DNA of 47,795 nucleotides from a virus, in the IMG/VR virus record IMGVR_UViG_3300037088_000099, positions 1 through 47,795 of that record. One strand, written 5' to 3'. The translations under genes and the position numbers were made by a program. Positions 1 through 20,742 of this stretch are shown piece by piece (position 1 is the first letter of the stretch; each line of letters begins with the position of its first letter). The notes under the pieces are model-generated. The model did no database searches and was not told the origin of the DNA. It saw only the letters and a program-made list of their open reading frames with translations.

Positions 1-127
1 TATAATGAACCTAGCCCCAGTACGGATGAGGCGAGAAAGACTCCGATTGGAGTAGGATGTATACCATGCAGATTACAATTACACTCACGGATGCACAGGA
101 ATCCGCCCTGTTTATGATGGGGAAGGA
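1..127. repeat. terminal direct repeat, left copy
   Basis: Bases 1-127 are identical to 47669-47795; genome unit is 47668 bp. Confidence 0.9.
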
Positions 128-1987: not shown

Positions 1988-2241
1988 TAACAGAAATATA
2001 TCCCAGTGGTACTGGGACGTTCACAGCACGGATAGCACATGGAAAGTCTAGTGCTATGCGAACTGGATTCCGCACACGCGAATCAGCACAGGCGTATCTT
2101 ACAGCGATGGAGCCAAAAATGGTATCCGTCACGGATATGCACGATCCTGATGCGTATAGATACGCGCATAACGCAACTCACCAGCTACAGTTTGGTGGCC
2201 GGCAGATGCCACATTATATCCTGCACTCCGAGAGGAATTGA
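1984..2241 (+). CDS. hypothetical protein
   Basis: 85-aa ORF whose ATG overlaps the upstream stop (ATGA), suggesting translational coupling. Confidence 0.6.
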   Translation: MITEIYPSGTGTFTARIAHGKSSAMRTGFRTRESAQAYLTAMEPKMVSVTDMHDPDAYRYAHNATHQLQFGGRQMPHYILHSERN

Positions 2242-2244
2242 GCC

Positions 2245-2469
2245 ATGCCACGAGCTATAACATACAACTGTGATATATGCGGCGCACAGCGCAAAGAGGC
2301 AAATCATTGGTTTGCTGCTATTATCACAGCAGTAGGCGTAAGTATCATTACTTGGGCAAGTGCTGCACGGGATGGAAAGCTCGACTACGACGTAAAATAT
2401 CTGTGCGGACAAGCATGTGCACATAAACAACTCGATCAATTCCTACAATCCACATCGGAGTCCGAATAA
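2245..2469 (+). CDS. hypothetical Cys-containing small protein
   Basis: 74-aa ORF in the same-strand array; contains CDIC and CGQAC motifs. Confidence 0.55.
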   Translation: MPRAITYNCDICGAQRKEANHWFAAIITAVGVSIITWASAARDGKLDYDVKYLCGQACAHKQLDQFLQSTSESE

Positions 2470-2471
2470 CC

Positions 2472-2735
2472 ATGCCACATATTCCTGAACCTCAGTATGA
2501 ATGCTTTACTTGCGAGCAATACTTTGCTCGCACATCTGCGCTCATGGACGGTGTTCCGGTTGAGTACGCGACGGAATACTGCACGCGAGCATGTCAGCAA
2601 CAGTTTACAGAGCAGCTTGAAGCCGGCGCAGCTATGTCAAAGGCTGAGGGATTGGATGCACTACAACGTCCTGCGACTAGCACTGCTACGCTCATTGGTA
2701 TTGCACAGAAGTATGGATTGAAGTTAGCTAAGTAA
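2472..2735 (+). CDS. hypothetical Cys-containing small protein
   Basis: 87-aa ORF starting 2 nt after the upstream stop; contains CFTC and CTRAC motifs. Confidence 0.55.
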   Translation: MPHIPEPQYECFTCEQYFARTSALMDGVPVEYATEYCTRACQQQFTEQLEAGAAMSKAEGLDALQRPATSTATLIGIAQKYGLKLAK

Positions 2736-2776
2736 TTTCACGCAACATAACTTACTTTGAAAAAAGGAGTAATACA

Positions 2777-2992
2777 ATGGCTACCACAACACTCGCACGC
2801 AGGATTCGTAGGATTGGTGTGCTTCCCGGAACTAAGGGCATGCAGTTTGATGAAGAGTTTTTGCGCGACAATCGTGAAGTAACTGTAGCAGCAATTCGCG
2901 CAATAATGTATGATCGGCGTAGCATAGCGCGTGCAAAGCAACAGACTCCAGTAAAGAAAAATCGTCGTAGCCGCGCACGTCGCACTGCGTAA
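2777..2992 (+). CDS. hypothetical basic small protein
   Basis: 71-aa ORF with AAAGGAG upstream; Arg/Lys-rich C-terminus. Confidence 0.55.
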   Translation: MATTTLARRIRRIGVLPGTKGMQFDEEFLRDNREVTVAAIRAIMYDRRSIARAKQQTPVKKNRRSRARRTA

Positions 2993-3120
2993 TCTGTATC
3001 AACGCAAGTATTTATATCTTGCGTGCTGTACTCTATGAGAGAACTAAGTTATGTAGATTGACCGGGACATTTTACATAACAAGAGCGTTGAAATAGAGCA
3101 CAGCACGGAGGGTATAAACT

Positions 3121-3312
3121 ATGAACAATTCAACGCATATATCAGAACCATTCGCACCACATACAAATGCACGTCATCCACGATTTACGCGTAAAGCACT
3201 TGGTATAACTGCACGGCAATTCAAGAAGCAAAGAATTGCGCGGCTAGTATCGCTCGCAGAACAAGGAAAGATTGGCTATAGAAATATCATAGCAACAAAG
3301 GAGCTAGAATAA
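3121..3312 (+). CDS. hypothetical small protein
   Basis: 63-aa ORF with GGAGGG upstream. Confidence 0.5.
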   Translation: MNNSTHISEPFAPHTNARHPRFTRKALGITARQFKKQRIARLVSLAEQGKIGYRNIIATKELE

Positions 3313-3398
3313 TGCAAATAGCTGCGATCTTCGCATTACTATTCACATTGCTTGTCTTCGTATTCTGTTCGTTCATAGTTCTGGATGCACAGAAGTAA
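3312..3398 (+). CDS. small hydrophobic peptide (28 aa, single predicted TM helix)
   Basis: Manual translation MQIAAIFALLFTLLVFVFCSFIVLDAQK. Its ATG overlaps the upstream TAA (TAATG). Below the length cutoff of the ORF track. Confidence 0.4.
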   Translation: MQIAAIFALLFTLLVFVFCSFIVLDAQK

Positions 3399-3431
3399 TA
3401 ACAGCCTAACGGAGTACCACAGAGAGGTATT

Positions 3432-3503
3432 ATGAACAGCACTGGTTGTGCAATCTTCGCTTGTCTGTTTATTACAGGAATTCTATTCCTATGCTTTTAC
3501 TAA
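3432..3503 (+). CDS. small hydrophobic peptide (23 aa), paralogue-like to the preceding one
   Basis: Manual translation MNSTGCAIFACLFITGILFLCFY, preceded by AGAGAGG. Shares an AIFA-LF core with the upstream peptide. Confidence 0.4.
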   Translation: MNSTGCAIFACLFITGILFLCFY

Positions 3504-3693
3504 TATCAACCAGCGATTATATCGCTGTGTACGGCTAGGCACTAAGCGGGGAATACTCGTGAATCCCTAACTGCGACTGCATATTATGCAACGTCCTGGT
3601 CGAGGTTGCGCGCAATATGTAAGGCAGGTATTAGCTGAATCAACAGCTATAGCCGTACACAGGAGTATAATACTGTATACAGGAGATGGGAAT

Positions 3694-4101
3694 ATGGAAG
3701 AGAATCAGGTAAAGAAACAAACGCCGCAGGAAAAAGTGGTTGAATATTATCTTGTGCTTGCAAAATACTACGCAGCGCATCCGAATGCGATGGTCGAATA
3801 TCTGCCAACGATTCAATATCTCTGGATCGACGGAAAACCGGAAGAGTACAAAGCTGCTGGCGCGGGAGATAAGGAGTTCACGAATGATTATGTGAACTAT
3901 AAGGTAGAGCTTATTCCCAATAAGCTTACATTGAATTTCTGCACTCCGCGTGGAAATGTATGCAAGAAACGTGTAGTAGGCACGAAAGAAGTTCCAGAGT
4001 TTTATATTGCTGGGACAGCCGGAAGAGTAATCCCCGCGCATACGGAAGAAGTAATCGAATGGGATTGCCCTGAGTCGCTTCTAAAGGCCAAAGAATCCTA
4101 G
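3694..4101 (+). CDS. hypothetical protein
   Basis: In-frame ATG at 3694 within ORF 3586-4101, preceded by AGGAGATGGG; gives 135 aa. Confidence 0.6.
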   Translation: MEENQVKKQTPQEKVVEYYLVLAKYYAAHPNAMVEYLPTIQYLWIDGKPEEYKAAGAGDKEFTNDYVNYKVELIPNKLTLNFCTPRGNVCKKRVVGTKEVPEFYIAGTAGRVIPAHTEEVIEWDCPESLLKAKES

Positions 4102-4120
4102 CCTTACCCGCACCTTTACC

Positions 4121-4149
4121 TTGACACCTTGCGCGCGATGTGCGACAAT
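4121..4149 (+). promoter_or_regulatory. candidate sigma70-like promoter (TTGACA with weak -10)
   Basis: cTTGACAc at 4120-4127 matches the core at 1203 and 9423. The -10 is weak (GACAAT), so confidence is low. Confidence 0.3.
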
Positions 4150-4253
4150 GTAACTAGATCGCATACGCGCGCAATCGTCAGTGTAAAGTAGCTACGCACT
4201 GAAAAAGCGCACTATAGTAATACGGGCAACCCCCGTAGGAGAGTAATAAATCT

Positions 4254-4787
4254 ATGTCAACCACCGCAGTTATCTCTGATCCTAACACAATCGCAACTCT
4301 TCCAATCAGCAGCGAAGTTCTGAACTACACCGCTATTGTCGAACTTGACGAGAAAGGTGTAATCCAGAAGAAGTCCCTCACTACCAGCTCCAAGCGTGTG
4401 GAAACGCTGGAAGCTGCTGATTACTCCGGCAAGGAAATCATCGCATTCAAGCAGACTGTTTCTCGCCCGGTTGTTGGTACGCTTGCGGGATTCACTGATC
4501 TGTTCCCGGATGCTGATGCGCAGCTTTTCATTATCAACCGCGGTTTGAGTGCGTTTGCTGATGCGAAGGTTCGTTCTGTATTCCTGGAAACTGATAAGGA
4601 CGACACCGCGCTTGTTTTCCAGTCCACCACCGGCACGTATGATCTTACCGCTGATGTGCAGGATACGCCAGCACGCAAGCTCACGAGCGAGGAAACTCTG
4701 GTCGCCAGCCTGCGCAAGATGGGAGTCAGTTCGGATATGATCTCGCAGGTGTTTGCGAGCTTGCAGGCGAACAAGGCTACTGTCTAA
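4254..4787 (+). CDS. hypothetical early protein, probably highly expressed
   Basis: 177-aa ORF with AGGAGAG upstream, lying between a candidate promoter and a strong intrinsic terminator. Confidence 0.8.
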   Translation: MSTTAVISDPNTIATLPISSEVLNYTAIVELDEKGVIQKKSLTTSSKRVETLEAADYSGKEIIAFKQTVSRPVVGTLAGFTDLFPDADAQLFIINRGLSAFADAKVRSVFLETDKDDTALVFQSTTGTYDLTADVQDTPARKLTSEETLVASLRKMGVSSDMISQVFASLQANKATV

Positions 4788-4821
4788 ACGATATACGCAA
4801 TAGATTGCAGCATTTGAAGAC

Positions 4822-4860
4822 TGGCGCACGTTCAGTAAAATGGGCGTGCGCCATTTTTAA
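4822..4860 (+). terminator. intrinsic terminator
   Basis: Stem TGGCGCACG (4822-4830) pairs with CGTGCGCCA (4845-4853), followed by a T5 run, about 35 nt after the stop at 4787. Confidence 0.55.
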
Positions 4861-4881
4861 TTGTAGGGTAGGAGCATAACT

Positions 4882-5226
4882 ATGATCGCATGTGATTTAA
4901 ATCACTATAATGATGCTATAATGTATCTAAAAGGTGCTAGACATGATTTATCTGTAGCAGCTGCAAAACTTCAAGCCATGGGCGAAGGAGATGGTTGGCC
5001 TGAGTGGTATAAAATGGCTGAAACTGAAACGATAAGAGAGTTATTCCGGAAAGAAAAATGGTATAGCCCTGAAATGGATAATATACCAGAATTCATCTTA
5101 TTTCGCGGATTGCTTAGTAATTGGACACCGCGCAAAGAACAAGAGAGTCAAATAAAAATTGCTGCCGAGCGCATAGCAATTTATCAATGGGTAGAAGGTG
5201 AGATTATAAAAACATGGCACTCTTGA
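4882..5226 (+). CDS. hypothetical protein (AT-rich gene)
   Basis: 114-aa ORF with AGGAG upstream. Visibly more AT-rich than neighbouring genes. Confidence 0.6.
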   Translation: MIACDLNHYNDAIMYLKGARHDLSVAAAKLQAMGEGDGWPEWYKMAETETIRELFRKEKWYSPEMDNIPEFILFRGLLSNWTPRKEQESQIKIAAERIAIYQWVEGEIIKTWHS

Positions 5227-6074
5227 GTAACGGTCAACTTGCGAAATGCCCGCGATGCGGGATGAATATAGCTGGTGTACGGCTAACCACGGGACAAATA
5301 GCATATCATTGTACTTGGACATTTTGCGAGGATAAGAATAAAACACTGTGGAATTCTGAGATTCTTGCGCGTCCTGTACTCACACAAGCGCAGAAAGATT
5401 CTTATCGCATATCCGCAATGCTAAAAGCAGGCCAGAGTAACGCGCAGATACCAGGATTTTTTGCACAAGCATACGCACAAGCACAAGCTCCAACTGGCTC
5501 GCATCCAAATAATACACAGCCGATATACCCGATATACTCAGCACAACCGAGGCGCACTTCCATGAAAGAAATCCGAATAACATATCTCTACAACAATACA
5601 ATCGTAGAACTATATTTCATAACCATGCCACGCAAAGGCTGGTTCAAAGACAACATCCAGCCAGTTATAGATGTTATGAAAAATATGATTCCCGCGAACG
5701 CGCGTGAATACGACCCCGCGACGTTCAAATGGCAGATTGCGATTGAGTATTGGCCCGCGTTGCGACAGATATTGACCTCCACACAATTCGCGGTAAAGGA
5801 AGTATCGCCCTCTACTTCGCACGCGAACGTACCCAAAGATTATGCAGAGAATTTCTATCACGCGCCAGTAAAACGCGAGGTTGAGACGAAGGAGTCTATA
5901 CTTGTGCTGCTTGCAAAGCTACTCGGAATCCATGAGGATATTGCGAGTATGGAGCTGGTCGCGCTGAAAAAGAAATATCGTGAGGCTGCACGCCGATACC
6001 ATCCTGACCTCGGTGGAGATGCTGCGAAGATGGCGGAGTTGAATCGAGTTTGGAGTATATACAATACTAATTAA
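5214..6074 (+). CDS. J-domain (DnaJ-like) protein with N-terminal CxxC motif
   Basis: C-terminus LVALKKKYREAARRYHPDLGGDAAKMAELNRVWSIY has the HPD tripeptide in a helix II/III J-domain context. N-terminus has CPRCG. Confidence 0.8.
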   Translation: MALLSNGQLAKCPRCGMNIAGVRLTTGQIAYHCTWTFCEDKNKTLWNSEILARPVLTQAQKDSYRISAMLKAGQSNAQIPGFFAQAYAQAQAPTGSHPNNTQPIYPIYSAQPRRTSMKEIRITYLYNNTIVELYFITMPRKGWFKDNIQPVIDVMKNMIPANAREYDPATFKWQIAIEYWPALRQILTSTQFAVKEVSPSTSHANVPKDYAENFYHAPVKREVETKESILVLLAKLLGIHEDIASMELVALKKKYREAARRYHPDLGGDAAKMAELNRVWSIYNTN

Positions 6075-7256: not shown

Positions 7257-7553
7257 ATGAAACTCGAAGATATAACCGCGGAGCAATTTGATGCTTGGAT
7301 AGAGAAAACAACCAGTCCGGCTGAAAAACCAGACGATAACTGGCTCGCAGAAACCGCTATGGCAATGGAAACAATGAAATCAATGCCGGCATTGCGCGAA
7401 TATCTCACGCTAGTCGCGCTTGTTTCCAAGCTATCAGGCAAATCCAGTGCAAATGCAATTTTCACAATCGGTATTTGTCTCGGAATAGAATTCGCCGTTG
7501 ATCGCGCGGAGAGCGAGAAATTGGAGGCACTTGTATGCCCAGTCTCACAGTAA
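7257..7553 (+). CDS. hypothetical protein
   Basis: 98-aa ORF starting directly after the upstream stop. Confidence 0.55.
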   Translation: MKLEDITAEQFDAWIEKTTSPAEKPDDNWLAETAMAMETMKSMPALREYLTLVALVSKLSGKSSANAIFTIGICLGIEFAVDRAESEKLEALVCPVSQ

Positions 7554-8203
7554 TACAGAAACCAATCGTCTCTAGCAACGGGCGAATTCTTACCGGATTG
7601 GCTGCGCGGAAAGCACAGCTCGCGTCTGAGCTTGGGTTGCCGCAGGAGCTAAAACCGGGGCAGATGGAGCATAGGATTGGAATAGTATTTGATGATTCTG
7701 GTTCTATGCGAACGGATATGATCGAAGACGCGCATGTAGGATGCGAGGAATTCTTACGCTACTGCGAACCGAATAAAACCGCGGTATGTGTATATCCTAT
7801 GAACGCGGATGAGCTGTCGCTTAGTACGAATCTTCCTGCGCTCGCTATGCTTATCAATGGTATCCACGCAACAGGTGGGACTCCGTTGATTCAAAAGCTC
7901 AGTAAGATGCTGCGCGCGAATAAGCTCACACGCGCGATCGTATTTAGTGACGGGTGCCCGCAGTCGTATTCAGACGTAGACTATAATTTCTGTGTGGAAT
8001 CTAAGATTCCGGTAGACACAGTATTCATTGGTTCTGGCTATGGTAGCGAGTTCATGCAAAAGCTCGCCTCTGATTGCAACGGCATATTCCTGCAATTCGA
8101 GCGCGGAAAGTCTAATTTTCGTACTGCATTCAAATATCTGAGTCCCGGACTTCGGTATATGCTTGCGGACTCTTCATTCAGGGAAAAAATACAAGGGAGA
8201 TAG
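7535..8203 (+). CDS. von Willebrand factor type A (vWA) domain protein
   Basis: MIDAS-type DxSxS motif in IGIVFDDSGSM, then ATGGT and IVFSDG motifs in vWA order. No signal peptide. Confidence 0.75.
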   Translation: MPSLTVIQKPIVSSNGRILTGLAARKAQLASELGLPQELKPGQMEHRIGIVFDDSGSMRTDMIEDAHVGCEEFLRYCEPNKTAVCVYPMNADELSLSTNLPALAMLINGIHATGGTPLIQKLSKMLRANKLTRAIVFSDGCPQSYSDVDYNFCVESKIPVDTVFIGSGYGSEFMQKLASDCNGIFLQFERGKSNFRTAFKYLSPGLRYMLADSSFREKIQGR

Positions 8204-8204
8204 C

Positions 8205-9323
8205 GTGCCACTCACCCAAGAACAAGCACTTATCACCGCGCTCCTATCTCAAAAGCTTTCTGCGCTACGTATTCGCGCGAGCTTCGAGAGTGTCGAGCCG
8301 GGGCCAATAGTCACAACCTATTACATGCATCTCGGTGCTGATATTCCTATCTCCAAAATAATGCGAGCGGAGGAAGACCTTGCGCTGGCAGTTGGAGCAC
8401 CGAGCGTACTTATAACACGAAAGGGGGCTTCAATTGCGATTGCGATTCCGAATAAGGAAAGAACTGTCGTATCTTACGATTCTTGTTTGCACTCACTTAT
8501 GCAGGATGCTAATTGTCAGTTGCCAATTATGCTTGGAGTTGACACGAAAGGTAATGAGAAACATATTGATCTTATCGAATCACCGCACATTCTCATTGCA
8601 GGTAGTACAGGTGCAGGCAAGTCAGTATTACTTGCAGCAATCATTAGTGGGCTTGCTACAGCCAAGAGTAAGCATGAACTCAAAATGATGCTTGTAGACA
8701 CCAAGCAGCTTGATCTAACTCTATTTGCAGACCTCCCGCATGTAGTGGAGGTCGCAGATGATTTAGAGAAAGTGCATTTGCTACTTGATCGCTTACACAT
8801 CATAGTCCGCCAGCGTACAGCGAAGATGAAGGGTATAGCACGGAATCTTTCTGAGTACAACGCGCTGGGCGATCATCAACTTCCGTATTATGTAGTTGTT
8901 ATAGATGAGCTTGCAGATGTGCTAATGCAGGATCGAAGTGCCGGGAAAGGAATACGAGGATATGAAAAAGCTGAAACAAAGCTACAGGGTTTATTGCAGA
9001 TATGCCGCGCAGCGGGAATTCACATCATTTGTGCTACACAACGCCCCTCGGTGGAAATTATTACTGGTGATATTAAAGCTAATATACTTACGCGAATTGC
9101 ACTTAGGCTACCTAGTGGGGCTGACAGTAGAACTGTATTAAATGAATACGGAGCCGAAAAACTCCTCGGACGTGGAGACATGCTTATCGAATCCCCCTGC
9201 TTCGACCAAATAACCAGATTCCACGGGCCGTTTGTGAGCATGGCTCATATAGCAAGCGTGTTGGATAACTGTGATGGTATTAGGAATAGTTATAAAATGC
9301 TGGAATCGAGTATCGGGTTGTAG
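8205..9323 (+). CDS. FtsK/SpoIIIE-family DNA translocase ATPase (motor domain only)
   Basis: Walker A IAGSTGAGKSVLL, Walker B YYVVVIDELADVL, and a C-terminal block ICATQRPSVEIITGDIKANILTRIAL that closely matches the FtsK motor. GTG at 8205 with AGGGAG upstream sits 1 nt after the vWA stop; the ORF track's longer TTG start is at 8163. Confidence 0.8.
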   Translation: MPLTQEQALITALLSQKLSALRIRASFESVEPGPIVTTYYMHLGADIPISKIMRAEEDLALAVGAPSVLITRKGASIAIAIPNKERTVVSYDSCLHSLMQDANCQLPIMLGVDTKGNEKHIDLIESPHILIAGSTGAGKSVLLAAIISGLATAKSKHELKMMLVDTKQLDLTLFADLPHVVEVADDLEKVHLLLDRLHIIVRQRTAKMKGIARNLSEYNALGDHQLPYYVVVIDELADVLMQDRSAGKGIRGYEKAETKLQGLLQICRAAGIHIICATQRPSVEIITGDIKANILTRIALRLPSGADSRTVLNEYGAEKLLGRGDMLIESPCFDQITRFHGPFVSMAHIASVLDNCDGIRNSYKMLESSIGL

Positions 9324-9745: not shown

Positions 9746-10351
9746 ATGCCAACGCAAGATGGCGAAACCATCCCAGTCTGTCCCGCGTGTGACGCGAAGG
9801 ATGAGACGAAGATATGTTTGAAGTGCCACATTGTATACTGTGCGCATTTCGCATCCGTAACGGATAATAGATTCTGCGAGAATTGTATATCTGATTTTTC
9901 TCTGAAAGAAACAATAGTAGAGAAATTAGTAGAGCATATTCGACCTGATGGCACTGTAACATTTTCAAGAAAGTATCAAGCTAGGTGTATTCACATGCAA
10001 GGAAATGATTGGTTGTTTGCAGCGACGCTGATTCCTGAAATGTCGGATGCGGAGATTGACGCGACGATTGAGTATCATAGGAATAATGTGTCACTGATGC
10101 TTATGGAGCGCGAATCGCGGAAGCTCGAACGGTACCATAAACTCGCGGGCGTAAAAATCACCAATACCAAGCATGAATCGCAGGAAGCGCGGGAGAAGCG
10201 AGAAGAAAAAGAAGCGAATAAGAAAACTCGCACAAGTACGAAGGAAAAAGCTCCGACTGTGGATGATATGGTTGCGATGATTACGAAGTTGGCGAAGGCT
10301 GGATTGACGCAAGAGCAGATTACAGCGATGTTTGCGAAGGGGAAGAAATGA
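9746..10351 (+). CDS. zinc-finger protein, hypothetical
   Basis: 201-aa ORF with N-terminal CPAC...CLKCH...YC cluster and a Lys/Glu-rich central region. Confidence 0.6.
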   Translation: MPTQDGETIPVCPACDAKDETKICLKCHIVYCAHFASVTDNRFCENCISDFSLKETIVEKLVEHIRPDGTVTFSRKYQARCIHMQGNDWLFAATLIPEMSDAEIDATIEYHRNNVSLMLMERESRKLERYHKLAGVKITNTKHESQEAREKREEKEANKKTRTSTKEKAPTVDDMVAMITKLAKAGLTQEQITAMFAKGKK

Positions 10352-10654: not shown

Positions 10655-11710
10655 ATGCAAATCGAAGAAGCAATCTCTCGCTACCACTGGTTCCAGCGTG
10701 GGGAAGATGGCGTAATCGAGCTATTCCTCGATCACCACGCGCTCGCAACTTTTCGCTCTTGCGAAGCGTCGTTTGAGCTATCAATGATGGCGAATATCCG
10801 GCCAGTACATAAAAGCTGGAATCTTGAATTTGGTATTATCTTTCACAAGATGATTGAAGAGTTTTATATTGCAAAGCGGGATGAGAAGTTTGAGCTTGTA
10901 CCCTGGCTGCAATTAGCAATCGGACTGTGGGACAAGTATCAGATGGAGGCGCAGTTTGGCGAGCATAAGATGTATAAGATGCTCGGCGGAGTATATGGAT
11001 TTATAGATATGCTCGCGCAGTATGCGGATCATTTTGCAGCAGAGGTTGATAGGCTACGGGTTATTGGGATTGAGATTACATTTGGAAAGAAGCGGGAAGT
11101 GCTGCTTGGCACATTTACAGCATATCAGCTTGATCCTACTCTGCAACCCCATTTTAAAATTGAGTTTGATGCGCAGGTTGAGCAAGTACGCTGCTACCTC
11201 ACAGGCCGTATCGACTTTCTAATGGACTCCGGTAACGCAATAGGCCCGCTAGATCACAAAACCACCGCATTCTTCCGTGGAAATCCTGCAAATACCTACG
11301 ATCCGCAAGAAGGAATGACAGGCTACATCTTCGCGGTGCAGCAAATTATGAAAACCAGTTTCCCTGAACTCCTGGGTCAGCGCAAAGTAGATCGCATTTG
11401 GATGAACTTCGCACAAGTAAGTCCAGTAAAAGATCCGATGGAGCGTTTCAAGCGTGTCCCGATATTCAAAACAGATTGGCAGCTTGAGCAATATCGGCTG
11501 CGACAACTACGGACATTTCATAAGATTTATGACATGATCGTACTTGGAGAGCGTGCGGATTGGAATACTTCTGTTTGTAATAATATGTTCCATAACGAAT
11601 GCCAGTATCGAAATTTGCATCGGCAGAATACAAATGATGCTATGATACAGGTGCTCAAAACTGATTTCAAGGTGGCAGCACCGTGGAATCCTGAGCAAAT
11701 AGAGGATTAG
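10655..11710 (+). CDS. PD-(D/E)XK nuclease, Cas4/RecB-like
   Basis: TGRIDFLMD followed by PLDHKTT matches the D ... (D/E)xK nuclease core; C-terminal cysteines (CNNMFHNEC) resemble a Cas4-like metal cluster. Confidence 0.6.
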   Translation: MQIEEAISRYHWFQRGEDGVIELFLDHHALATFRSCEASFELSMMANIRPVHKSWNLEFGIIFHKMIEEFYIAKRDEKFELVPWLQLAIGLWDKYQMEAQFGEHKMYKMLGGVYGFIDMLAQYADHFAAEVDRLRVIGIEITFGKKREVLLGTFTAYQLDPTLQPHFKIEFDAQVEQVRCYLTGRIDFLMDSGNAIGPLDHKTTAFFRGNPANTYDPQEGMTGYIFAVQQIMKTSFPELLGQRKVDRIWMNFAQVSPVKDPMERFKRVPIFKTDWQLEQYRLRQLRTFHKIYDMIVLGERADWNTSVCNNMFHNECQYRNLHRQNTNDAMIQVLKTDFKVAAPWNPEQIED

Positions 11711-12354: not shown

Positions 12355-13143
12355 ATGCCATACGAGAATATCAACGGGCTTGTGGATTTGGAGTCCGAGC
12401 CACGATTTAAAATCGCAGTAGTTGGTGAGCCAAAAGCAGGTAAAAGCTGGTTCGCTATGACTGCGCCGGGAACTATCTTCGAGGCCGATTTCGATGATCG
12501 TTCGGAGAGTATACGAGCGTTTGTGAATAAAACAAAGCGCACAGATATCACAGCGAAGACATACAAGGAACTAAATCCCGCACAACCACACGCGATTGCG
12601 GATTTTGAAACCGATTTGAGTATGTTTGAATATCTCAAGCAAAAGGGTGAGAAAACACCCGATTGGTATATTCTTGATTCTATGACATATTTGCGTACCG
12701 CGTGCGAGCATGAGCTTATCAAACAGCACCCAAGCATGAGCCGCGTTGTAAAGATGGGAAATACTACAGTACGGATTCCATCGCACTATGATATTATTAA
12801 CGGCAATCGTGCGTATATGGAATACTTGCTTGGGCGATTATCCGAGCTTGGAAATGTAATCGCAATTTTTCATGAAATGGATGAAAAAGATGCTCAATCT
12901 TCGACAAAAGAGCAAAAGGCTTACACTGGGCGAAAAACTGTTCAGCCTCAGTATCTTAGTAGCTTACTTTCTCTTTTCAACGACGTGTTTCGTATCACTA
13001 TTGATTATAGCGGTAATAGGATTGTTGCTGTTCAGCCATCTTCTGATTTCATGGCTTCAACTTCAATGAGATTAGATGCCACGGAGTCTGCGAATCTTGC
13101 AGATATGATTGCGAAGCACAAAAAAGCACTCGCACAAGTTTAG
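12355..13143 (+). CDS. RecA-like P-loop ATPase (Sak4/AAA_24-like)
   Basis: N-terminal Walker A VVGEPKAGKS and Walker B-like WYILDS in a protein of about 260 aa, as in phage Sak4-type recombination ATPases. Confidence 0.65.
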   Translation: MPYENINGLVDLESEPRFKIAVVGEPKAGKSWFAMTAPGTIFEADFDDRSESIRAFVNKTKRTDITAKTYKELNPAQPHAIADFETDLSMFEYLKQKGEKTPDWYILDSMTYLRTACEHELIKQHPSMSRVVKMGNTTVRIPSHYDIINGNRAYMEYLLGRLSELGNVIAIFHEMDEKDAQSSTKEQKAYTGRKTVQPQYLSSLLSLFNDVFRITIDYSGNRIVAVQPSSDFMASTSMRLDATESANLADMIAKHKKALAQV

Positions 13144-13948: not shown

Positions 13949-15079
13949 TTGTCTAACACGCATGTTGCAAATAGTGGAAATCCTGCTTGCCCCGTATGGG
14001 TGATGCTGAATAAACCTCTTTCCGGTGACTCGGATAAGGGATATTTATTCAGCTCCCCTATGGGGTATGTTTTTGATAAAATGATGCGGGAAGCGGGGCT
14101 GCCGGATTATTTTGTTACCTGTAATCAGCCTAATACGGATTCTAATGCCGGCGGGGATTGGTTATCTTATTTCATGCACCATAAACCTGCGATTATAATT
14201 CCGCTTGGCGCGGTAGGTGGGCATCTTTCTGAGTGTATGATACCAAAATATCGCTCCGCAAAATACGATCCAGAGCGAGATTCTGAGATTTCTAAATATG
14301 CGGGTTCGTTACTCACTGCGGATCGCTTGCCAAATGTAACATGGCCGCACTATGTTGTCCCGACATACGAGCCACTGGATATTGTAAAACAGTGGAAGAT
14401 GCGGGATGTGGTTATCAGCTGTGATCTCGCCAAGGCAGCAAGCGAGTACGAATACTGGAGAACCCATGCTCATACAATGCAGCCACTTCCTGAGCGCACA
14501 CCCAAGATTAATTTCGATTCTTTCGACGAGCTTTTATATATCTTGGATACTTTTTGTAATTACCCTTTGCTTTCTAATGACATCGAGACGATCTATCCAA
14601 GAGCGCCTACGAAAACCCAACCATCGCAATTCTACCGTATTCTTCCTGGCTATCCTATTACTATCGGTCTTGCTCCTACTGTCGGGTTCGGTATTAGCTT
14701 TGATTTATTTAGAGAATCTACAGTAGAAACTCGCGAGCTATGGAAAAAGCTAGCTAAGTTACTATGGGAAGTACCATCCCTCGGTCAAAATTTCTTCAAC
14801 TTTGATGCGAATTTCTACGAAATGCTCGGCTTTCGGCTTCCACTTGAAAAATGTCGGGATACTATGATTCAGCATCATTTACTCTGGCCGGAATTGAAAC
14901 ATACGTTACAATTTCAGGCGAGACAGTATACCCGCGAGGTATACTGGAAGGACGAGGGTGCTGGCTGGAGTATTAAGAATATGGATCAAATGAAAATCTA
15001 TAATTGTAAGGACGTAATGTGTACGTTGGAGATTTACTACGCGCAACTGGAAGAGATGAAATCAAGGGGGTTGGAATGA
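13949..15079 (+). CDS. DNA polymerase A family, 3'-5' exonuclease subunit
   Basis: Exo I (SNDIETI), Exo II (GQNFFNFDANFYEML) and Exo III (YNCKDVMCTLEIY) motifs in canonical order. N-terminal 200 aa of unknown fold. The ORF ends without a polymerase domain. Confidence 0.8.
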   Translation: MSNTHVANSGNPACPVWVMLNKPLSGDSDKGYLFSSPMGYVFDKMMREAGLPDYFVTCNQPNTDSNAGGDWLSYFMHHKPAIIIPLGAVGGHLSECMIPKYRSAKYDPERDSEISKYAGSLLTADRLPNVTWPHYVVPTYEPLDIVKQWKMRDVVISCDLAKAASEYEYWRTHAHTMQPLPERTPKINFDSFDELLYILDTFCNYPLLSNDIETIYPRAPTKTQPSQFYRILPGYPITIGLAPTVGFGISFDLFRESTVETRELWKKLAKLLWEVPSLGQNFFNFDANFYEMLGFRLPLEKCRDTMIQHHLLWPELKHTLQFQARQYTREVYWKDEGAGWSIKNMDQMKIYNCKDVMCTLEIYYAQLEEMKSRGLE

Positions 15080-15254: not shown

Positions 15255-15458
15255 ATGGCTGAAATCAACGCATCTACCCAAGAGCAACTCGCAGAGCAAA
15301 TAAATGCTCAGTTCAGAACGCTCTCTGAAATTCTCCAAGAGCAACACGAAGCATACAAGCTCTTATACGACATTAATGGCAAGTTCATAGAATACTGTGA
15401 ACACGCCAGAATACTAGCCCAATCAGCACAACCGAATGTATCCTTAGGAGGATATTAA
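15255..15458 (+). CDS. hypothetical small protein
   Basis: 67-aa ORF starting 3 nt after the previous stop. Confidence 0.5.
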   Translation: MAEINASTQEQLAEQINAQFRTLSEILQEQHEAYKLLYDINGKFIEYCEHARILAQSAQPNVSLGGY

Positions 15459-15823
15459 TGGCAGCTCAGGCATTTAATCTTACTTTCAACTGCACGCCCG
15501 CACAATTCGCTGTAGCAATGGCTACAACACTTCCAACAGAAGGATATACTGTTATTCAAGCACCTAATAAATTTGCCGGTATTATTACCGGAACATCAAG
15601 TGCTGCGGCAGGACTTGGGCAACTAGATTTCTTCTACGATGGCGCGTATTATCTCAAATTCTTCGGTGCGAATCCTGCTCCGGTCGCACAGCAAGCACAG
15701 ACCGGAATCCCTGCTACACAGTTAACAAGTAATATCGTGAGTAATCTTACTACAACCCTCGCTGCAACCCTCGGCGCACCAGTACCCTCGAACACAGCTA
15801 ACGTAGCTGGCCCTGCTGCTTAA
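15458..15823 (+). CDS. hypothetical Ala/Thr-rich protein
   Basis: 121-aa ORF whose ATG overlaps the upstream stop. Confidence 0.5.
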   Translation: MAAQAFNLTFNCTPAQFAVAMATTLPTEGYTVIQAPNKFAGIITGTSSAAAGLGQLDFFYDGAYYLKFFGANPAPVAQQAQTGIPATQLTSNIVSNLTTTLAATLGAPVPSNTANVAGPAA

Positions 15824-15895: not shown

Positions 15896-16627
15896 ATGAA
15901 AATCGTTCAACCATATGCGAAAATTATAGAGCCTGAGTTATTGGCACAAGCACTTCAGCGGATTGAAGCCGCTGCCCGCATCAGCCACAGAAGCGAAGAT
16001 GGACAGACAGCAGATACAGCAGAAAAGTTTATTCGTGCTGTTGTATTAGGACACGGTGATTGGTCAGTTGTGGAACACGTTTCCGCATCAGTCGAGTTTC
16101 TTGTGGATCGCGGCATTACACATGAAATCGTGAGACACCGGATTGCCAGTTATACGCAGGAGTCCACGCGGTTTGTAAACTACGCAAAGAAGATGTTGCC
16201 CAGCTTTATCTATCCCATCGTTGGGGTAGAGTGCCCGTACTGCATTGCTGGGGAAGAAGTACGCAAGCGCGATTCTTTGGGTGGCAACTGGGGCCACGAT
16301 AACCTAATTAAATGCCCGTATGATCCTCTGTGGTTAACTGCGATTGATACCTTAGAAAAATCGTACACTGCTTTGATCGCACAGGGATGGCGACCACAGG
16401 AAGCGCGGTCTGTTTTTCCCAACGCCCTATCCTCAAAGATTCTCGTGACTTGTAATCTGCGTTCATGGCGTCAAATCTTTCTGATGAGAACGAGCAAAGA
16501 AGCACATCCACAAATGCGTCATGTGATGATTCCTCTGCTAGCTGATTTTCAGAGGCTTGTGCCGGTACTCTTTGAGGATATTATTCCCGAGTCGCGGCAA
16601 GTTGAAAATATAGCGAGGGGAAGATAA
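15896..16627 (+). CDS. thyX: flavin-dependent thymidylate synthase (ThyX)
   Basis: ThyX signature RHRIASYTQESTR (RHR ... S ... R) at the expected position in a protein of about 240 aa. Contains an extra Cys-rich segment CPYC...CPYD. Confidence 0.8.
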   Translation: MKIVQPYAKIIEPELLAQALQRIEAAARISHRSEDGQTADTAEKFIRAVVLGHGDWSVVEHVSASVEFLVDRGITHEIVRHRIASYTQESTRFVNYAKKMLPSFIYPIVGVECPYCIAGEEVRKRDSLGGNWGHDNLIKCPYDPLWLTAIDTLEKSYTALIAQGWRPQEARSVFPNALSSKILVTCNLRSWRQIFLMRTSKEAHPQMRHVMIPLLADFQRLVPVLFEDIIPESRQVENIARGR

Positions 16628-16641
16628 GTGACTGGTATACT

Positions 16642-18171
16642 ATGACACCTAATAAGATTACTAGTGAGTATCTACATGCGCTGCAAGCTGTGTACCATAG
16701 GATAGATTCCAGGGGTATTCTTGTTAACAAAGAAAGGCTAAGAGATGCTGCACTTTATATTAACAAAAGCATTGATACTCAGTGCCATATTATTAGTGAT
16801 ATTTGGAACTTGGACTGTTACATCGGAGCCTCAAACAAGCCGGAAACTGGCTCTCGGCGCAGTCTTAATCTTAATAGTTCCTCCGGTGACAATACTCCTC
16901 TGCTCTATCTAAAATCAGTAGGATTTAAAATCCCAAAAGTCAGCAGCAGAGACGAGGATGGAAACTACATAGCAAAGGAATCTCTCAATGAGCTTGTCCT
17001 GCAAAAAATATATGCTACCAATCAATTCGGAATCCTTGGGGGCGACCCGGCGTTACGAGCGCTATTGCGAATACGCGAACTCGGTACCTTGCGCGCACGG
17101 TATATCAATGCGAATCTGTACGAACGAGAAGGGACTAGCCTCTTTCTTACAAATTACAACATCGCTGGAACGGTCACAGGTCGCAGAGGCTCTCGCAAAC
17201 ACACGTTTGGATTTGGAGGGAATGCTCAGAATTTCCCAAAGCATGGAGAACTCGCTAAAGTATACCGCAGGTGTTTGGTTGCAAGACCAGGAAAAATCCT
17301 GTTGAATGTAGATCAGATGCAAGCGGAAGATTGGCCGACAAGTGCGCTGGCACAGAATATGGAGGCGTTGGATGATTTACGGAATAACGTGGATCGGCAC
17401 AGAAAACTCGGTTGCCTCATATTTGACCTCCCTTGGGATCATTATACAGATGTTGAATGGAAGGATTCAATTGAGCGCTATCTTGGTAAGCAAACTAGAC
17501 ACGCGAACAATTACGGGATGCGAGCAAATACTATGTCAGACTCGCTGGCAAAGGAGGGACACTCAGTTACACCTGCTCAATGCGCTGCTATTCTCGAAAA
17601 AGTAAACAAGCATGATCCCTCTGTCGAACACGTATTCCACAAATACATAAAGGACTGTCTATATGCAAACCGCACCCTCCGCACTCCCTTCTCCCGCGAA
17701 CGTATCTTCTTCGGCCTCCGTGCTGGCGAATCAGGAAGTAATAACAAAATTTTCAACGAAGCATTTAGCTACATACCACAGTCTGTTGTCGGAGATAACA
17801 CGGGATTCTCAATGTTTGCTCTTGAAACCGGAAATGACGCGACAAGAGGTCACGTTATACAAGAATGCCATGATTCGATTATGCAGGAGATTGACGACAA
17901 TGTGGATTCTATCTGGGATCATATCCAAGCGGCTAAAGCAGCATTTAATCGCCCAATTCGATTCGACAACGGAATTGAAATCAACATCCCAGTTGAGGGA
18001 GAGTTGTCCTACGACTTCTCACAAGGAGTAAGTTTGAAGTCATCCAGCACCAAGACGAAAAAACTCTCTGACATATCGTACAGTGATGTACAAGCAGCAT
18101 TTTATCAGCTGCAAGAAATAAAACAGAAAGAAGCCCAAGATGGCCAGAAAGTTGCCTCAGAATTGGATTAG
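16642..18171 (+). CDS. DNA polymerase A family, polymerase-domain subunit
   Basis: O-helix region GTVTGRRGS...GNAQNFPK resembles the Klenow TGRLSS...PNLQNIP block. Motif B-like KQTRHANNYG and motif C-like ECHDS are present. No exonuclease domain in this ORF. Confidence 0.85.
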   Translation: MTPNKITSEYLHALQAVYHRIDSRGILVNKERLRDAALYINKSIDTQCHIISDIWNLDCYIGASNKPETGSRRSLNLNSSSGDNTPLLYLKSVGFKIPKVSSRDEDGNYIAKESLNELVLQKIYATNQFGILGGDPALRALLRIRELGTLRARYINANLYEREGTSLFLTNYNIAGTVTGRRGSRKHTFGFGGNAQNFPKHGELAKVYRRCLVARPGKILLNVDQMQAEDWPTSALAQNMEALDDLRNNVDRHRKLGCLIFDLPWDHYTDVEWKDSIERYLGKQTRHANNYGMRANTMSDSLAKEGHSVTPAQCAAILEKVNKHDPSVEHVFHKYIKDCLYANRTLRTPFSRERIFFGLRAGESGSNNKIFNEAFSYIPQSVVGDNTGFSMFALETGNDATRGHVIQECHDSIMQEIDDNVDSIWDHIQAAKAAFNRPIRFDNGIEINIPVEGELSYDFSQGVSLKSSSTKTKKLSDISYSDVQAAFYQLQEIKQKEAQDGQKVASELD

Positions 18172-19393
18172 CAGTTATGTAAACGCTATTACTCCGATCA
18201 CTGAGGCTCCTGATGCGTATGTGTATTGGTCAGCCATCTCAGTGGTCAGCGCAGTTCTTAAAAAGAAAGTGTGGATACAACGTGGGACATTCAAAGTCTA
18301 CCCCAATCAATACATCATACTTGTTGGGCCGCCGGGAGTTGGCAAAGGAACCGCAATGCATCCCGCTCACGCATTTATCAAAGAGTATAAACCTGAACTT
18401 TCAAACTACCTCAGTGATCGAATCACCGCTCCTGAAATCATTTCGCGTCTGGCTGCTGGGTTCCAGACCCAGAGCATAGTTAATGGCCACGTAGTAACCG
18501 CAACCGAATCCACAGCATGTATCATGGCAACAGAACTTAGTACATTTTTAGGTAGCAGCGATTGGATGACTTCATTTCTCTGTGATACTTGGGATAGGAG
18601 TAAATTTGAATATGGGACTAAGAATAAAGGCAGTTATGCTATTAAGGACATGTGCGTTTCTCTTATCGGTGCTTGTGTTCCAGATTTTATCCGCAGGATT
18701 AACGGTAAGACTAGTTCCGCGGAGGCTATTAATAGCGGCTTCACGGCTCGTACTATATTCGTATTCGCAAATGAAAAGTCCAAGAAACTACCCTGGCCCA
18801 CTCAGCTCAAGGATACTAATGGCGGAGCGGATACGATCACTAATCTACGATACGACCTCGAACAAATAGCACAGGTCAATGGCGAGTACACATTCACACA
18901 AGAAGCAATCGACACATTTAACCAATGGTACGCGAAACTCGGTGCCACAGACACAGACTCAGATGTAGTCCGGCACTTTAAAAGTCGCCAAGATGTACAC
19001 GTATTCAAAGTCGCAATGTGTCTTGCGGCTGCGAGTAACGACAAACTTGTAATAGATCGTTGGTGTTTATTCACAGCGATTCAATTAGTACAAGGCGTAC
19101 TTGATACGCTGGATATAACATTTAGGGGGGTGGGAGAGAGCACACTTAGCGAAGCCACAGCAAAGGTTCAAACGTATTTGGAGAGAAAGGGCATAGCAAC
19201 ACGTGCAGAGCTAGTACGCGATAATGCTCGTCATGCGACAATGGAAGATTTAGATAGAATCATTTTAACACTACACACGATAGGTTTAGTAAGACCATTT
19301 TCAACGGGAGGCCGCCAGTACTATGAATACACCAAGCAGGGAGCAGGACATGTTGGGACGCCGGGAATTAGAATTGGAAACAACGTCCCTTGA
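18140..19393 (+). CDS. P-loop NTPase (AAA-like Walker A), candidate replication helicase or loader
   Basis: Walker A ILVGPPGVGKGT near residue 62 of 417. Lies directly downstream of the polymerase. Family not resolved. Confidence 0.55.
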   Translation: MARKLPQNWISSYVNAITPITEAPDAYVYWSAISVVSAVLKKKVWIQRGTFKVYPNQYIILVGPPGVGKGTAMHPAHAFIKEYKPELSNYLSDRITAPEIISRLAAGFQTQSIVNGHVVTATESTACIMATELSTFLGSSDWMTSFLCDTWDRSKFEYGTKNKGSYAIKDMCVSLIGACVPDFIRRINGKTSSAEAINSGFTARTIFVFANEKSKKLPWPTQLKDTNGGADTITNLRYDLEQIAQVNGEYTFTQEAIDTFNQWYAKLGATDTDSDVVRHFKSRQDVHVFKVAMCLAAASNDKLVIDRWCLFTAIQLVQGVLDTLDITFRGVGESTLSEATAKVQTYLERKGIATRAELVRDNARHATMEDLDRIILTLHTIGLVRPFSTGGRQYYEYTKQGAGHVGTPGIRIGNNVP

Positions 19394-19930: not shown

Positions 19931-20305
19931 GTGAAACGAATCCCTGCAATCATCGCTCTATTCTTGGCTGTGCCGCTCATCGCGCAGACTGCCAAGCCAA
20001 CCGTACCGCCAACCCCGCCAGCAGTAACGGCCAAATCTGCACCGCAGTTGTCGGACTATCCTAATTACATCAGTATAGGAACAACTGTCCTCAACTTCGC
20101 TGACATCGCCATTGATAACACAACGAAGGGAGGATGCAGCCAAGTGTTCGGTCGCTGGGATGCGAAACGACATTTGTGCAAGGGAGTTATTCAGTTCGAG
20201 GGAATGGGCCGCGTGTCGTGTTCGCGGGGAAGTGCACATAATGTAGACAAAAATATGTGGGTAGTAACCTGCTGGTACACACCCAAACCAAAGGAGAAAA
20301 AATGA
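19931..20305 (+). CDS. secreted Cys-containing protein
   Basis: GTG start with AAGGAGA upstream. N-terminal signal-peptide-like MKRIPAIIALFLAVPLIAQ; four Cys in the mature part. Confidence 0.55.
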   Translation: MKRIPAIIALFLAVPLIAQTAKPTVPPTPPAVTAKSAPQLSDYPNYISIGTTVLNFADIAIDNTTKGGCSQVFGRWDAKRHLCKGVIQFEGMGRVSCSRGSAHNVDKNMWVVTCWYTPKPKEKK

Positions 20306-20610: not shown

Positions 20611-20620
20611 AAGTAAGCAA

Positions 20621-20670: not shown

Positions 20671-20742
20671 CTGCGGCTTGTGCTTTACCCGCACAGAGGG
20701 TGAATGCTAGTTACTCGTCGTGCCGTGCTTCGTGGTGCGCTC

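What the first reader, a model, noticed from the sequence alone, without database searches (positions are those of the whole stretch)
7535..9323. Coupled vWA protein and stand-alone FtsK/SpoIIIE motor ATPase in the early region
A vWA-domain gene with an intact MIDAS motif (DDSGSM) is followed 1 nt later by a gene for an FtsK-type motor domain that lacks the membrane anchor and gamma domain. This pairing is not part of any standard podovirus replication or packaging module. It could be a host-DNA-directed or anti-defence machine, or an unusual genome-handling complex.
Basis: partly seen in the sequence, partly recalled or inferred. Interest (0 to 1): 0.75.

Follow-up and report, generated by a model that had tools for sequence, protein, structure and literature searches.

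The report
Phage vWA adaptor plus anchorless FtsK motor
An uncultured 47.7-kb phage, and every relative of it that could be checked, encodes a metal-site (vWA) protein just upstream of a free-floating FtsK-type DNA pump; the pair is real and strictly conserved, but its function is unknown.

Summary
ORF 7535-8203 is a stand-alone vWA protein with a complete MIDAS metal site. Its own Pfam score is below threshold, but its family, an AF2 model (pLDDT 87) and Foldseek all support vWA. ORF 8205-9323 starts 1 nt after the vWA stop. It is an FtsK alpha+beta motor (Pfam 2e-32; PDB FtsK 3e-53) with intact catalytic motifs, and it has no membrane anchor and no gamma domain.

The pairing is not chance. 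All 102 non-identical vWA..FtsK spans from viral and metagenome contigs have the order vWA then FtsK on one strand, down to 26-32% vWA identity. The few loci lacking one gene are cut at a contig end. The 1-nt junction is local: the usual spacer is 0-2.1 kb of unrelated small ORFs.

Both genes are core genes of the replication/recombination arm: J-domain protein, vWA, FtsK, Zn-protein, PD-(D/E)XK nuclease, Sak4-like ATPase, split PolA.

- No fusion, prophage copy or cellular operon was found.
- Nothing supports an anti-defence or host-directed role.
- My best reading, at modest confidence, is that vWA acts as a targeting or regulating adaptor for a DNA pump working on phage DNA.
- I rate it a new variant of known kinds, of moderate interest.

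The parts
7535..8203 (+). Stand-alone vWA/MIDAS protein, 222 aa. The vWA fold spans about residues 46-190. There is a low-confidence N-terminal linker with the conserved G21-LAARKA motif, and a conserved C-terminal helical tail (residues 193-215, SNFRTAFKYLSPGLRxMLADxSF).
   Evidence: The family comprises 172 clusters (at 50% identity) with E<1e-30, all stand-alone proteins of 200-295 aa.
7523..7527 (+). Shine-Dalgarno GGAGG, 7 nt before the vWA ATG
   Evidence: read directly from the sequence.
7691..7705 (+). MIDAS motif D53-D-S55-G-S57. The remaining MIDAS residues are T116 (7880-7882) and D139 (7949-7951).
   Evidence: Invariant in alignment A1 and in the distant-branch alignment A3.
8195..8207 (+). 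Gene junction: SD GGGAG (8195-8199), vWA stop TAG (8201-8203), one base, FtsK start GTG (8205-8207)
   Evidence: The start is supported by homologue N-termini.
8205..9323 (+). Soluble FtsK/SpoIIIE-type translocase, 372 aa, with alpha and beta domains only
   Evidence: Pfam FtsK_SpoIIIE 2.1e-32 and FtsK_alpha 7.7e-11; PHROG 1358 1.9e-73; PDB 2iuu 3.4e-53.
8232..8453 (+). FtsK alpha domain (residues about 10-83)
   Evidence: (FtsK_alpha, residues 11-83) and the alignment.
8496..9266 (+). FtsK beta (RecA-like motor) domain, residues about 98-354. It contains Walker A G133-S140 (8601-8624), Walker B D234-E235 (8904-8909) and T278-Q279-R280 (9036-9044).
   Evidence: Invariant columns of alignment A2 and the alignment to 2iuu.
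5214..6074 (+). Context: J-domain protein (HPD motif), a conserved core gene upstream of the pair
   Evidence: DnaJ 7.2e-5; present in 29 of 32 relatives.
9746..10351 (+). Context: 201-aa protein with eight conserved Cys/His residues, always found between FtsK and the nuclease; fold unknown
   Evidence: Present in 32 of 32 relatives. Alignment A7, AF2 pLDDT 69, no fold match.
10655..11710 (+). Context: PD-(D/E)XK exonuclease
   Evidence: PDDEXK_1 1.9e-10; phrog_1218; 32 of 32 relatives.
12355..13143 (+). Context: AAA_24 / Sak4-like recombination ATPase
   Evidence: AAA_24 2.3e-10; phrog_124; 31 of 32 relatives.

Best explanation
Shown: the window is the complete genome of an uncultured phage. 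Its replication/recombination arm carries two invariant core genes. One is a stand-alone vWA protein with a full MIDAS metal site. The other is an FtsK alpha+beta motor with all catalytic motifs but without the two devices that target cellular FtsK, namely the membrane anchor/linker and the gamma DNA-reading domain.

Inferred from the FtsK family: the motor forms a hexameric ring that pumps double-stranded DNA with ATP.

Inferred from gene linkage, and by analogy with other ring-ATPase/vWA pairs (MoxR-vWA, ChlI-ChlD, XPD-p44): the vWA protein is the motor's adaptor. Its MIDAS site would clamp an acidic residue, and its conserved N- and C-terminal peptide motifs would dock it. This would supply in trans the loading, targeting or regulation that the lost domains gave in cis.

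Inferred from the neighbourhood (PD-(D/E)XK nuclease, Sak4-like ATPase, PolA, primase-helicase): the substrate is the phage's own replicating DNA. Possible jobs are stripping bound proteins, moving or clearing branched concatemers, or feeding DNA to recombination and packaging. The substrate is probably not host DNA.
For: - Identity of both proteins.
- Strict linkage and order: FtsK lies downstream on the same strand in 76 of 76 IMG/VR vWA loci.
- Of 158 loci, only 6 lack vWA, and all 6 are cut less than 1.1 kb upstream of FtsK.
- In the distant vWA branch (26-32% identity), 36 of 37 loci have FtsK and the remaining one is truncated.
- There are 102 non-identical spans, and the spacer genes turn over while the pair stays.
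- Both genes are in 32 of 32 relatives with flanks of at least 4.5 kb, within a conserved replication/recombination module.
- The catalytic and MIDAS residues are invariant across the clade, which implies selection for activity.
- A canonical TerL and portal are present, so the motor is not the packaging ATPase.
- The mirror-tree partial correlation between vWA and FtsK is the highest of ten core-gene pairs, but only marginally (0.37 against 0.35).
Against: - There is no direct evidence of a physical interaction.
- No vWA-FtsK fusion appears among the best 150 of 3357 profile hits.
- The spacer reaches 2.1 kb with other genes inserted.
- Linkage could simply reflect vertical inheritance of a syntenic module, since all five core genes have distance-matrix correlations of 0.90-0.93.
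- The pair was not found together in any independent lineage. It is absent from the two cultured-phage FtsK loci looked at and near only 1 of 80 cellular FtsK genes.
- An interface prediction could not be run.
- The substrate (phage or host DNA) is inferred from the neighbourhood only.
Confidence: 0.35

Rival explanations
1. The two are independent core genes. Both are needed by the phage but they do not form a complex. FtsK acts on DNA alone or with another partner, such as the always-present 201-aa Zn-protein. The vWA protein serves something else, such as chaperone hijacking together with the upstream J-domain protein and the GroES-like gene, or assembly, as in the MoxR-vWA system of Acidianus two-tailed virus.
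For: - The spacer is variable, up to 2.1 kb.
- No fusions were found.
- The mirror-tree result is not discriminating.
- A J-domain protein is conserved in 29 of 32 relatives just upstream, and a Cpn10-like gene is present in the genome.
- vWA co-chaperones are known in viruses (PMC7824862, read).
Against: The order vWA then FtsK, on the same strand, never breaks in 102 spans, although the genes between them turn over. In 12 spans the genes abut or overlap. The J-domain gene is less constant than the pair (29 of 32 against 32 of 32).
Confidence: 0.3
2. The pair is a genome-entry motor. It is made from the first DNA to enter the cell. The vWA protein tethers the FtsK ring to the ejection channel or inner membrane, and the ring pulls in the rest of the genome. 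The vWA would functionally replace FtsK's membrane anchor.
For: - The motor lacks its own anchor.
- Cellular and conjugative relatives (SpoIIIE, TraB) pump DNA across membranes; this rests on my own knowledge of those families.
- The pair lies in the first fifth of the plus-strand arm, if the physical left end lies near the divergent junction.
Against: The physical genome ends are unknown, because the assembly is circular. Neither protein has a membrane segment or any detected link to virion or ejection proteins. Host RNA polymerase transcription could already pull the DNA in. The pair sits among replication and recombination genes, not at the start of the arm.
Confidence: 0.1
3. The pair is a host-directed takeover device. 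The gamma-less motor loads on the host chromosome, or competes with host FtsK, to derail segregation or division or to clear the nucleoid. This is one of the first reader's ideas.
For: PHROGs files phage FtsK-like proteins under 'moron, auxiliary metabolic gene and host takeover'. Bacillus phage SpoIIIE/FtsK homologues have been discussed in connection with sporulation (papers listed).
Against: - The PHROG category is a label, not a test.
- The phage protein is at most 39% identical to any cellular FtsK, so it is not a recent mimic of a host protein.
- It has no gamma domain to read host KOPS or to activate XerD.
- It is a strictly conserved core gene in the replication arm, which is unlike typical morons.
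Confidence: 0.1
4. The pair is an anti-defence machine, for example stripping restriction or Cas complexes from phage DNA, or decoying FtsK-domain defence proteins such as SspH/DndH.
For: FtsK motors displace DNA-bound proteins (my own knowledge of the family). PADLOC shows the same ATPase domain in SspH (3e-43) and mad8 (6e-29).
Against: The PADLOC matches cover only the shared FtsK-type domain (SspH positions 1448-1761 of 1766). According to PMC10853773, DndH captured that domain from cellular FtsK. The vWA protein has no PADLOC hit. Anti-defence genes are usually variable accessory genes, whereas this pair is invariant.
Confidence: 0.05

Closest known systems
Cellular FtsK/SpoIIIE DNA translocases (e.g. 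P. aeruginosa FtsK, PDB 2iuu)
   Same: The alpha and beta domains match, with Walker A and B, sensor Q and arginine motifs. The E-value is 3.4e-53 and the alignment covers nearly the whole phage protein.
   Different: The phage protein has no N-terminal membrane domain or linker and no gamma winged-helix domain (KOPS reading, XerD activation). It is 372 aa, against a median of about 790 aa for cellular homologues (stop-to-stop ORF lengths). Identity to any cellular FtsK is at most 39%. It carries a family-specific insertion after Walker B.
Phage-encoded anchorless FtsK-like proteins: cluster J mycobacteriophages (Omegavirus) and Bacillus Bastille-like/BtCS33-like phages
   Same: These are FtsK motor domains encoded by tailed phages that also have a normal terminase. 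The cluster J proteins also lack the membrane domain. [quoted passage not shown] About 33% identity.
   Different: The cluster J proteins keep a divergent gamma domain, and the Bacillus proteins are about 750 aa. No vWA gene lies next to them. In Minerva a Ku-like end-binding gene lies two genes upstream instead. The hosts and phage lineages are different.
Ring-ATPase plus vWA adaptor pairs: MoxR-vWA (RavA-ViaA; ATV and jumbo-phage versions), Mg-chelatase ChlI-ChlD, TFIIH XPD-p44/p34
   Same: A stand-alone MIDAS-type vWA protein is encoded next to, and presumed to work with, a P-loop motor. The vWA model matches p44, p34, Rpn10 and BatB structurally. Viral MoxR-vWA pairs are described in PMC7824862.
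   Different: Here the ATPase belongs to the FtsK-HerA superfamily, not to AAA+ MoxR or SF2. I found no described FtsK-vWA pair in full-text searches.
Archaeal ArnB vWA protein (PDB 8s05_A, 5a8j_A)
   Same: It is the closest solved structure by sequence profile (5.7e-10 and 3.9e-5), and it is a stand-alone regulatory vWA that pairs with a Zn-ribbon protein (ArnA).
   Different: ArnB is about 380 aa with extra domains and is not linked to an FtsK motor. The similarity is confined to the vWA fold.
SspH/DndH and MADS mad8 defence proteins
   Same: They share an FtsK-type ATPase domain (PADLOC 3e-43 and 6e-29).
   Different: Only the C-terminal domain of these proteins of about 1,560-1,770 profile positions is matched. 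Nothing in the 372-aa phage protein corresponds to their other domains. The gene here is in a phage, not in a host defence island.

Membership tests
FtsK/SpoIIIE translocase family | FtsK alpha domain | tested here: met
   Pfam FtsK_alpha 7.7e-11 (42.5 bits against a cut-off of 22.9), residues 11-83.
FtsK/SpoIIIE translocase family | RecA-like beta motor domain with Walker A, Walker B, sensor Q and arginine residues | tested here: met
   Pfam FtsK_SpoIIIE 2.1e-32 (112.8 bits against 24). G133/T135/G138/K139/S140, D234/E235 and T278/Q279/R280 are invariant in 18 diverse members.
FtsK/SpoIIIE translocase family | C-terminal gamma (winged-helix) domain for KOPS/SRS reading and XerD activation | tested here: not met
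   Only 19 residues follow the motor alignment, and no gamma-domain family appears among the Pfam hits. The protein is therefore a truncated motor-only member.
FtsK/SpoIIIE translocase family | N-terminal membrane anchor and linker | tested here: not met
   The protein starts at the alpha domain. The start codon is supported by its SD sequence and by homologue N-termini.
FtsK/SpoIIIE translocase family | Hexamer formation and ATP-driven dsDNA translocation | not testable with these tools
   Needs biochemistry or a multimer structure prediction.
von Willebrand factor A (vWA) domain with MIDAS | Score above Pfam's curated threshold | tested here: not met
   This protein alone scores 20 bits for VWA_3 and 16.6 for VWA_2, against a cut-off of 27. 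Of 30 family members, 13 hit VWA_3 (best 1.2e-9), 10 hit VWA_2 and 5 hit VWA.
von Willebrand factor A (vWA) domain with MIDAS | Alpha/beta Rossmann-like vWA fold | tested here: met
   AF2 pLDDT 87.4. Foldseek matches vWF-A3, ITIH1, p44, Rpn10 and BatB at E 1e-9 to 1e-6 with probability 1.00. The profile hits ArnB at 5.7e-10.
von Willebrand factor A (vWA) domain with MIDAS | Complete MIDAS: DxSxS, a distal Thr and a distal Asp | tested here: met
   D53, S55, S57, T116 and D139 are invariant in alignments A1 and A3.
MoxR-vWA chaperone pairs | The partner ATPase is an AAA+ MoxR-family protein | tested here: not met
   The partner is FtsK-type. The AAA hit is marginal (E 0.006) and no MoxR-family model is among the Pfam hits listed.
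MoxR-vWA chaperone pairs | Conserved neighbourhood of the vWA gene and the ATPase gene | tested here: met
   102 of 102 non-identical spans.
SspFGH/DndFGH or MADS defence systems | Full-length SspH/DndH architecture (helicase-like, TRD, inactive methylase and REase domains, then FtsK) together with partner genes | tested here: not met
   Only profile positions 1448-1761 of 1766 of SspH are matched. The 372-aa protein has no room for the other domains. The neighbouring genes are replication genes.
FtsK-HerA-type viral packaging ATPases (tectivirus/PRD1-like) | Serves as the packaging motor in a virus that lacks a terminase and portal | tested here: not met
   The genome has a large terminase (phrog_38, 6.8e-54), a portal and an HK97-type major head protein.

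The most novel reading that the evidence does not exclude
The vWA protein and the motor-only FtsK form a previously undescribed two-part DNA pump. In it a MIDAS adaptor replaces both the membrane anchor and the gamma domain, telling the hexamer where to load. This pump would be an essential hallmark machine of a large, uncultured, possibly Acidobacteriota-infecting phage clade. It might work in genome entry or in concatemer handling ahead of packaging. It would be the first FtsK-HerA-superfamily counterpart of the AAA+/vWA (MoxR-type) partnership.
Probability: 0.3. Interest if true: 0.75.

Novelty: new variant of a known kind. Interest (0 to 1): 0.5.

Why it matters
Phage-encoded FtsK motors have been annotated for about 20 years without a known function. 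Here the motor is reduced to its engine and always travels with one candidate partner, which gives a minimal two-protein system that can be expressed and tested in vitro.

If the vWA protein does load or regulate the ring, that would show how a directionless DNA pump can be targeted in trans. It would also extend the ring-ATPase-plus-vWA-adaptor principle from AAA+ proteins to the FtsK-HerA superfamily.

The pair is also a clean marker. It is invariant in the more than 100 viral and metagenome loci examined here. The vWA family alone forms 172 clusters (at 50% identity) with E<1e-30. The marked clade of 44-51-kb phages has no cultured member and no prophage copy in 185,579 reference genomes.

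Tried and rejected
- **Near-identical DNA in cultured phages:** none. The vWA protein has no tblastn match in INPHARED.
- **Prophage or cellular copies of the vWA family:** none in the GTDB species genomes, within the reach of the peptide patterns.
- **Cellular origin of the pair:** the 80 closest cellular FtsK loci are full-length and 34-39% identical. Only one (L270) has generic vWA genes nearby, so this idea was rejected.
- **Rosetta-stone fusion:** none. The only long hit, P0374, is a generic secreted protein with three vWA domains.
- **Mirror-tree and partial correlation of five core genes across 61 genomes:** vWA-FtsK ranks highest but is not separable from the other pairs, so the result is inconclusive.
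- **A defence-system reading from PADLOC:** rejected as shared-domain homology.
- **A role as the packaging ATPase:** rejected, because a terminase and portal are present.
- **The 201-aa conserved neighbour as a trans-acting gamma domain:** the AF2 model has only pLDDT 69 and there is no fold match with E<0.2, so this led nowhere.
- **BFVD fold search with the vWA model:** only generic viral vWA proteins.
- **Literature searches for an FtsK-vWA pairing in phages:** nothing relevant.
- **A conserved small gene between vWA and FtsK:** rejected. The largest cluster of spacer ORFs occurs in 12 of 102 loci.
Full report
**What is there.** The window is a complete, circularly assembled phage genome of 47,668 bp; its first and last 127 bp are identical.
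- Plus-strand genes from about 1.2 to 20.3 kb form a replication/recombination arm.
- Minus-strand genes from 20.7 to 47.4 kb are structural and include the large terminase, portal, HK97-type head protein and a tail-spike-like protein of 1,570 aa.
- No cultured phage is close. There is no megablast match, and the terminase is only 21-24% identical to those of podophages of filamentous cyanobacteria.
- No tRNA genes were found.

**The two genes.**
- ORF 7535-8203 (222 aa) has a GGAGG Shine-Dalgarno sequence 7 nt upstream of its ATG.
- Its TAG stop at 8201-8203 is followed by one base and then by the GTG at 8205, which has its own GGGAG.
- The GTG start matches the N-termini of homologues.

**vWA assignment.** Taken alone, the protein misses Pfam's threshold (VWA_3, 20 bits against 27). 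The assignment is nevertheless secure.
- 13 of 30 family members hit VWA_3, 10 hit VWA_2 and 5 hit VWA.
- The family profile finds the archaeal ArnB vWA structure at 5.7e-10.
- An AF2 model built on 30 homologues has pLDDT 87.4 and pTM 0.79. It matches vWF-A3, ITIH1, TFIIH p44 and p34, Rpn10 and BatB at E 1e-9 to 1e-6.
- The MIDAS residues D53, S55, S57, T116 and D139 are invariant, even in the branch that is only 26-32% identical.
- Outside the fold there are two family-specific conserved peptide motifs: GLAARKA in a disordered N-terminal linker, and a C-terminal FKYLSPGLRxMLAD helix region. They look like docking elements, but their partner is unknown.

**FtsK assignment.**
- Pfam gives FtsK_SpoIIIE 2.1e-32 and FtsK_alpha 7.7e-11, PHROG 1358 gives 1.9e-73, and P. 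aeruginosa FtsK (2iuu) gives 3.4e-53 across nearly the whole protein.
- Walker A, Walker B, the TQR sensor/arginine motif and the other motor motifs are invariant in 18 diverse members, so the ATPase is under selection to work.
- The protein begins at the alpha domain and ends 19 residues after the motor alignment. It has no anchor, linker or gamma domain.
- The closest cellular FtsKs are full-length and only 34-39% identical. This is an old, diverged viral lineage, not a recent capture.

**Is the pairing more than chance?** Yes.
- Starting from the vWA family, 76 of 76 IMG/VR loci have an FtsK homologue downstream on the same strand.
- Starting from FtsK, only 6 of 158 loci lack vWA, and all 6 are cut less than 1.1 kb upstream of FtsK.
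- An exhaustive profile search shows that the vWA family is large: 172 clusters at 50% identity with E<1e-30, all stand-alone proteins of 200-295 aa.
- Loci of its most distant branch still have FtsK downstream in 36 of 37 cases, and the exception is truncated.
- In all, there are 102 non-identical spans with invariant order.
- The tight junction is not general. Only 12 spans have a gap under 60 nt, the median is 292 nt and the maximum 2.1 kb. The spacer holds unrelated small ORFs, and the largest cluster of them occurs in 12 loci.
- The pair is therefore kept while the genes between it turn over.

**Context.**
- In 32 relatives with flanks of at least 4.5 kb, the conserved order is as follows:
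  - J-domain protein (29 of 32)
  - vWA (32 of 32)
  - FtsK (32 of 32)
  - a 201-aa protein with eight conserved Cys/His residues (32 of 32)
  - PD-(D/E)XK exonuclease (32 of 32)
  - AAA_24/Sak4-like ATPase (31 of 32)
- Further along the arm come a split family-A polymerase, ThyX and a DUF3987 primase-helicase.
- The pair is thus part of the clade's core DNA-metabolism module.
- It is not the packaging motor, because a terminase and portal exist.

**What could not be shown.**
- No vWA-FtsK fusion exists among the top hits.
- No prophage or cellular copy of the vWA family was found.
- vWA is not next to FtsK in the two cultured-phage loci I looked at. In Minerva (cluster J) a Ku-like gene lies two genes upstream of FtsK, and BigBertha has none.
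- vWA genes lie near only 1 of 80 cellular FtsK genes.
- A mirror-tree test ranks vWA-FtsK highest (partial r 0.37) but barely above PDDEXK-Sak4 (0.35), so it is inconclusive.
- The 201-aa neighbour gave a mediocre model (pLDDT 69) and no fold match.

**Mechanism.** My best reading has confidence of about 0.35 for the whole chain of inference.
- The motor forms a hexameric dsDNA pump, which I infer from the family.
- Because it has lost both cis-acting targeting devices, it is loaded, targeted or regulated in trans by the vWA protein, through its MIDAS site and docking motifs.
- This step rests on the invariant linkage and on analogy with MoxR-vWA, ChlI-ChlD and XPD-p44.
- It works on replicating phage DNA, which I infer from the neighbourhood.

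The main rival, at about 0.3, is that the two are independent core genes and the vWA serves something else, such as chaperone hijacking with the J-domain protein. The genome-entry, host-takeover and anti-defence readings have no specific support. The PADLOC hits to SspH and mad8 are confined to the shared FtsK-type domain, which DndH proteins captured from cellular FtsK.

**Comparison with what is known.**
- Anchorless phage FtsK-like proteins are already known in cluster J mycobacteriophages, where their function is 'unclear' (PMC3706429), and in Bacillus phages.
- Ring-ATPase/vWA pairs are known for AAA+ proteins, including in viruses (PMC7824862).
- I found no description of an FtsK-vWA pair.

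**Verdict.** I rate it a new variant of known kinds and a strictly conserved hallmark of a large uncultured phage clade. Interest is moderate (0.5), because the function remains inferred.

Noticed in passing
window 1-127 and 47669-47795: The two ends of the window share an exact 127-bp overlap. The window is therefore a circular assembly of a complete 47,668-bp genome, and coordinate 1 is arbitrary.
   Followed up: yes
window 13949-15079, 15458-15823, 15896-16627, 16642-18171: The family-A DNA polymerase is split into two genes about 1.5 kb apart. A 121-aa ORF and a ThyX thymidylate synthase (Thy1, 5e-40) lie between the halves.
   Followed up: partly
window 5214-6074 and 19323-19919: The phage encodes a J-domain protein (HPD motif; conserved in 29 of 32 relatives) and a GroES/Cpn10-like protein with a weak DnaJ zinc-finger hit. 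This suggests it hijacks host chaperones.
   Followed up: partly
window 9746-10351: A 201-aa protein with eight conserved Cys/His residues, a conserved beta-hairpin plus long-helix core and a K/E-rich tail is present in 32 of 32 relatives between FtsK and the nuclease. It has no Pfam or PHROG family and no fold match.
   Followed up: yes
relatives L001-L195, between the vWA and FtsK genes: The spacer between the two conserved genes is a hot spot for unrelated small ORFs. It is 0-2112 nt long, and 92 of the 177 spacer ORFs are singletons. Only this genome and its close kin have the genes abutting.
   Followed up: yes
L196 (Mycobacterium phage Minerva, NC_026584.1) 2233-5299: In cluster J mycobacteriophages a Ku-like DNA-end-binding gene lies two small genes upstream of the anchorless FtsK-like gene. 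This may be a parallel case of a partner protein encoded next to an FtsK motor.
   Followed up: partly
window 20000-24000: GC content rises to 0.53, against about 0.45 elsewhere, inside the 1,570-aa tail-spike-like gene (20743-25455). This would fit a horizontally exchanged receptor-binding region.
   Followed up: no
window 45925-46332: An HNH endonuclease gene (HNH, 5e-5) overlaps the start of the large terminase gene by 4 nt, on the same strand. This is the HNH-terminase arrangement seen in some cos/HNH packaging phages.
   Followed up: no
L198-L277 (genome contigs): The cellular FtsKs most similar to the phage motor (34-39% identity) come disproportionately from Acidobacteriota MAGs from peat and soil (Terracidiphilus, Terriglobia, Vicinamibacterales, 'palsa' and 'SPRUCE' bins). 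This is only a weak hint about the host.
   Followed up: partly
L270 5440-7335: One Acidobacteriota chromosome has two generic vWA genes directly downstream of its full-length ftsK. It is the only such case among 80 cellular loci and is probably coincidental (BatA/BatB-like).
   Followed up: no
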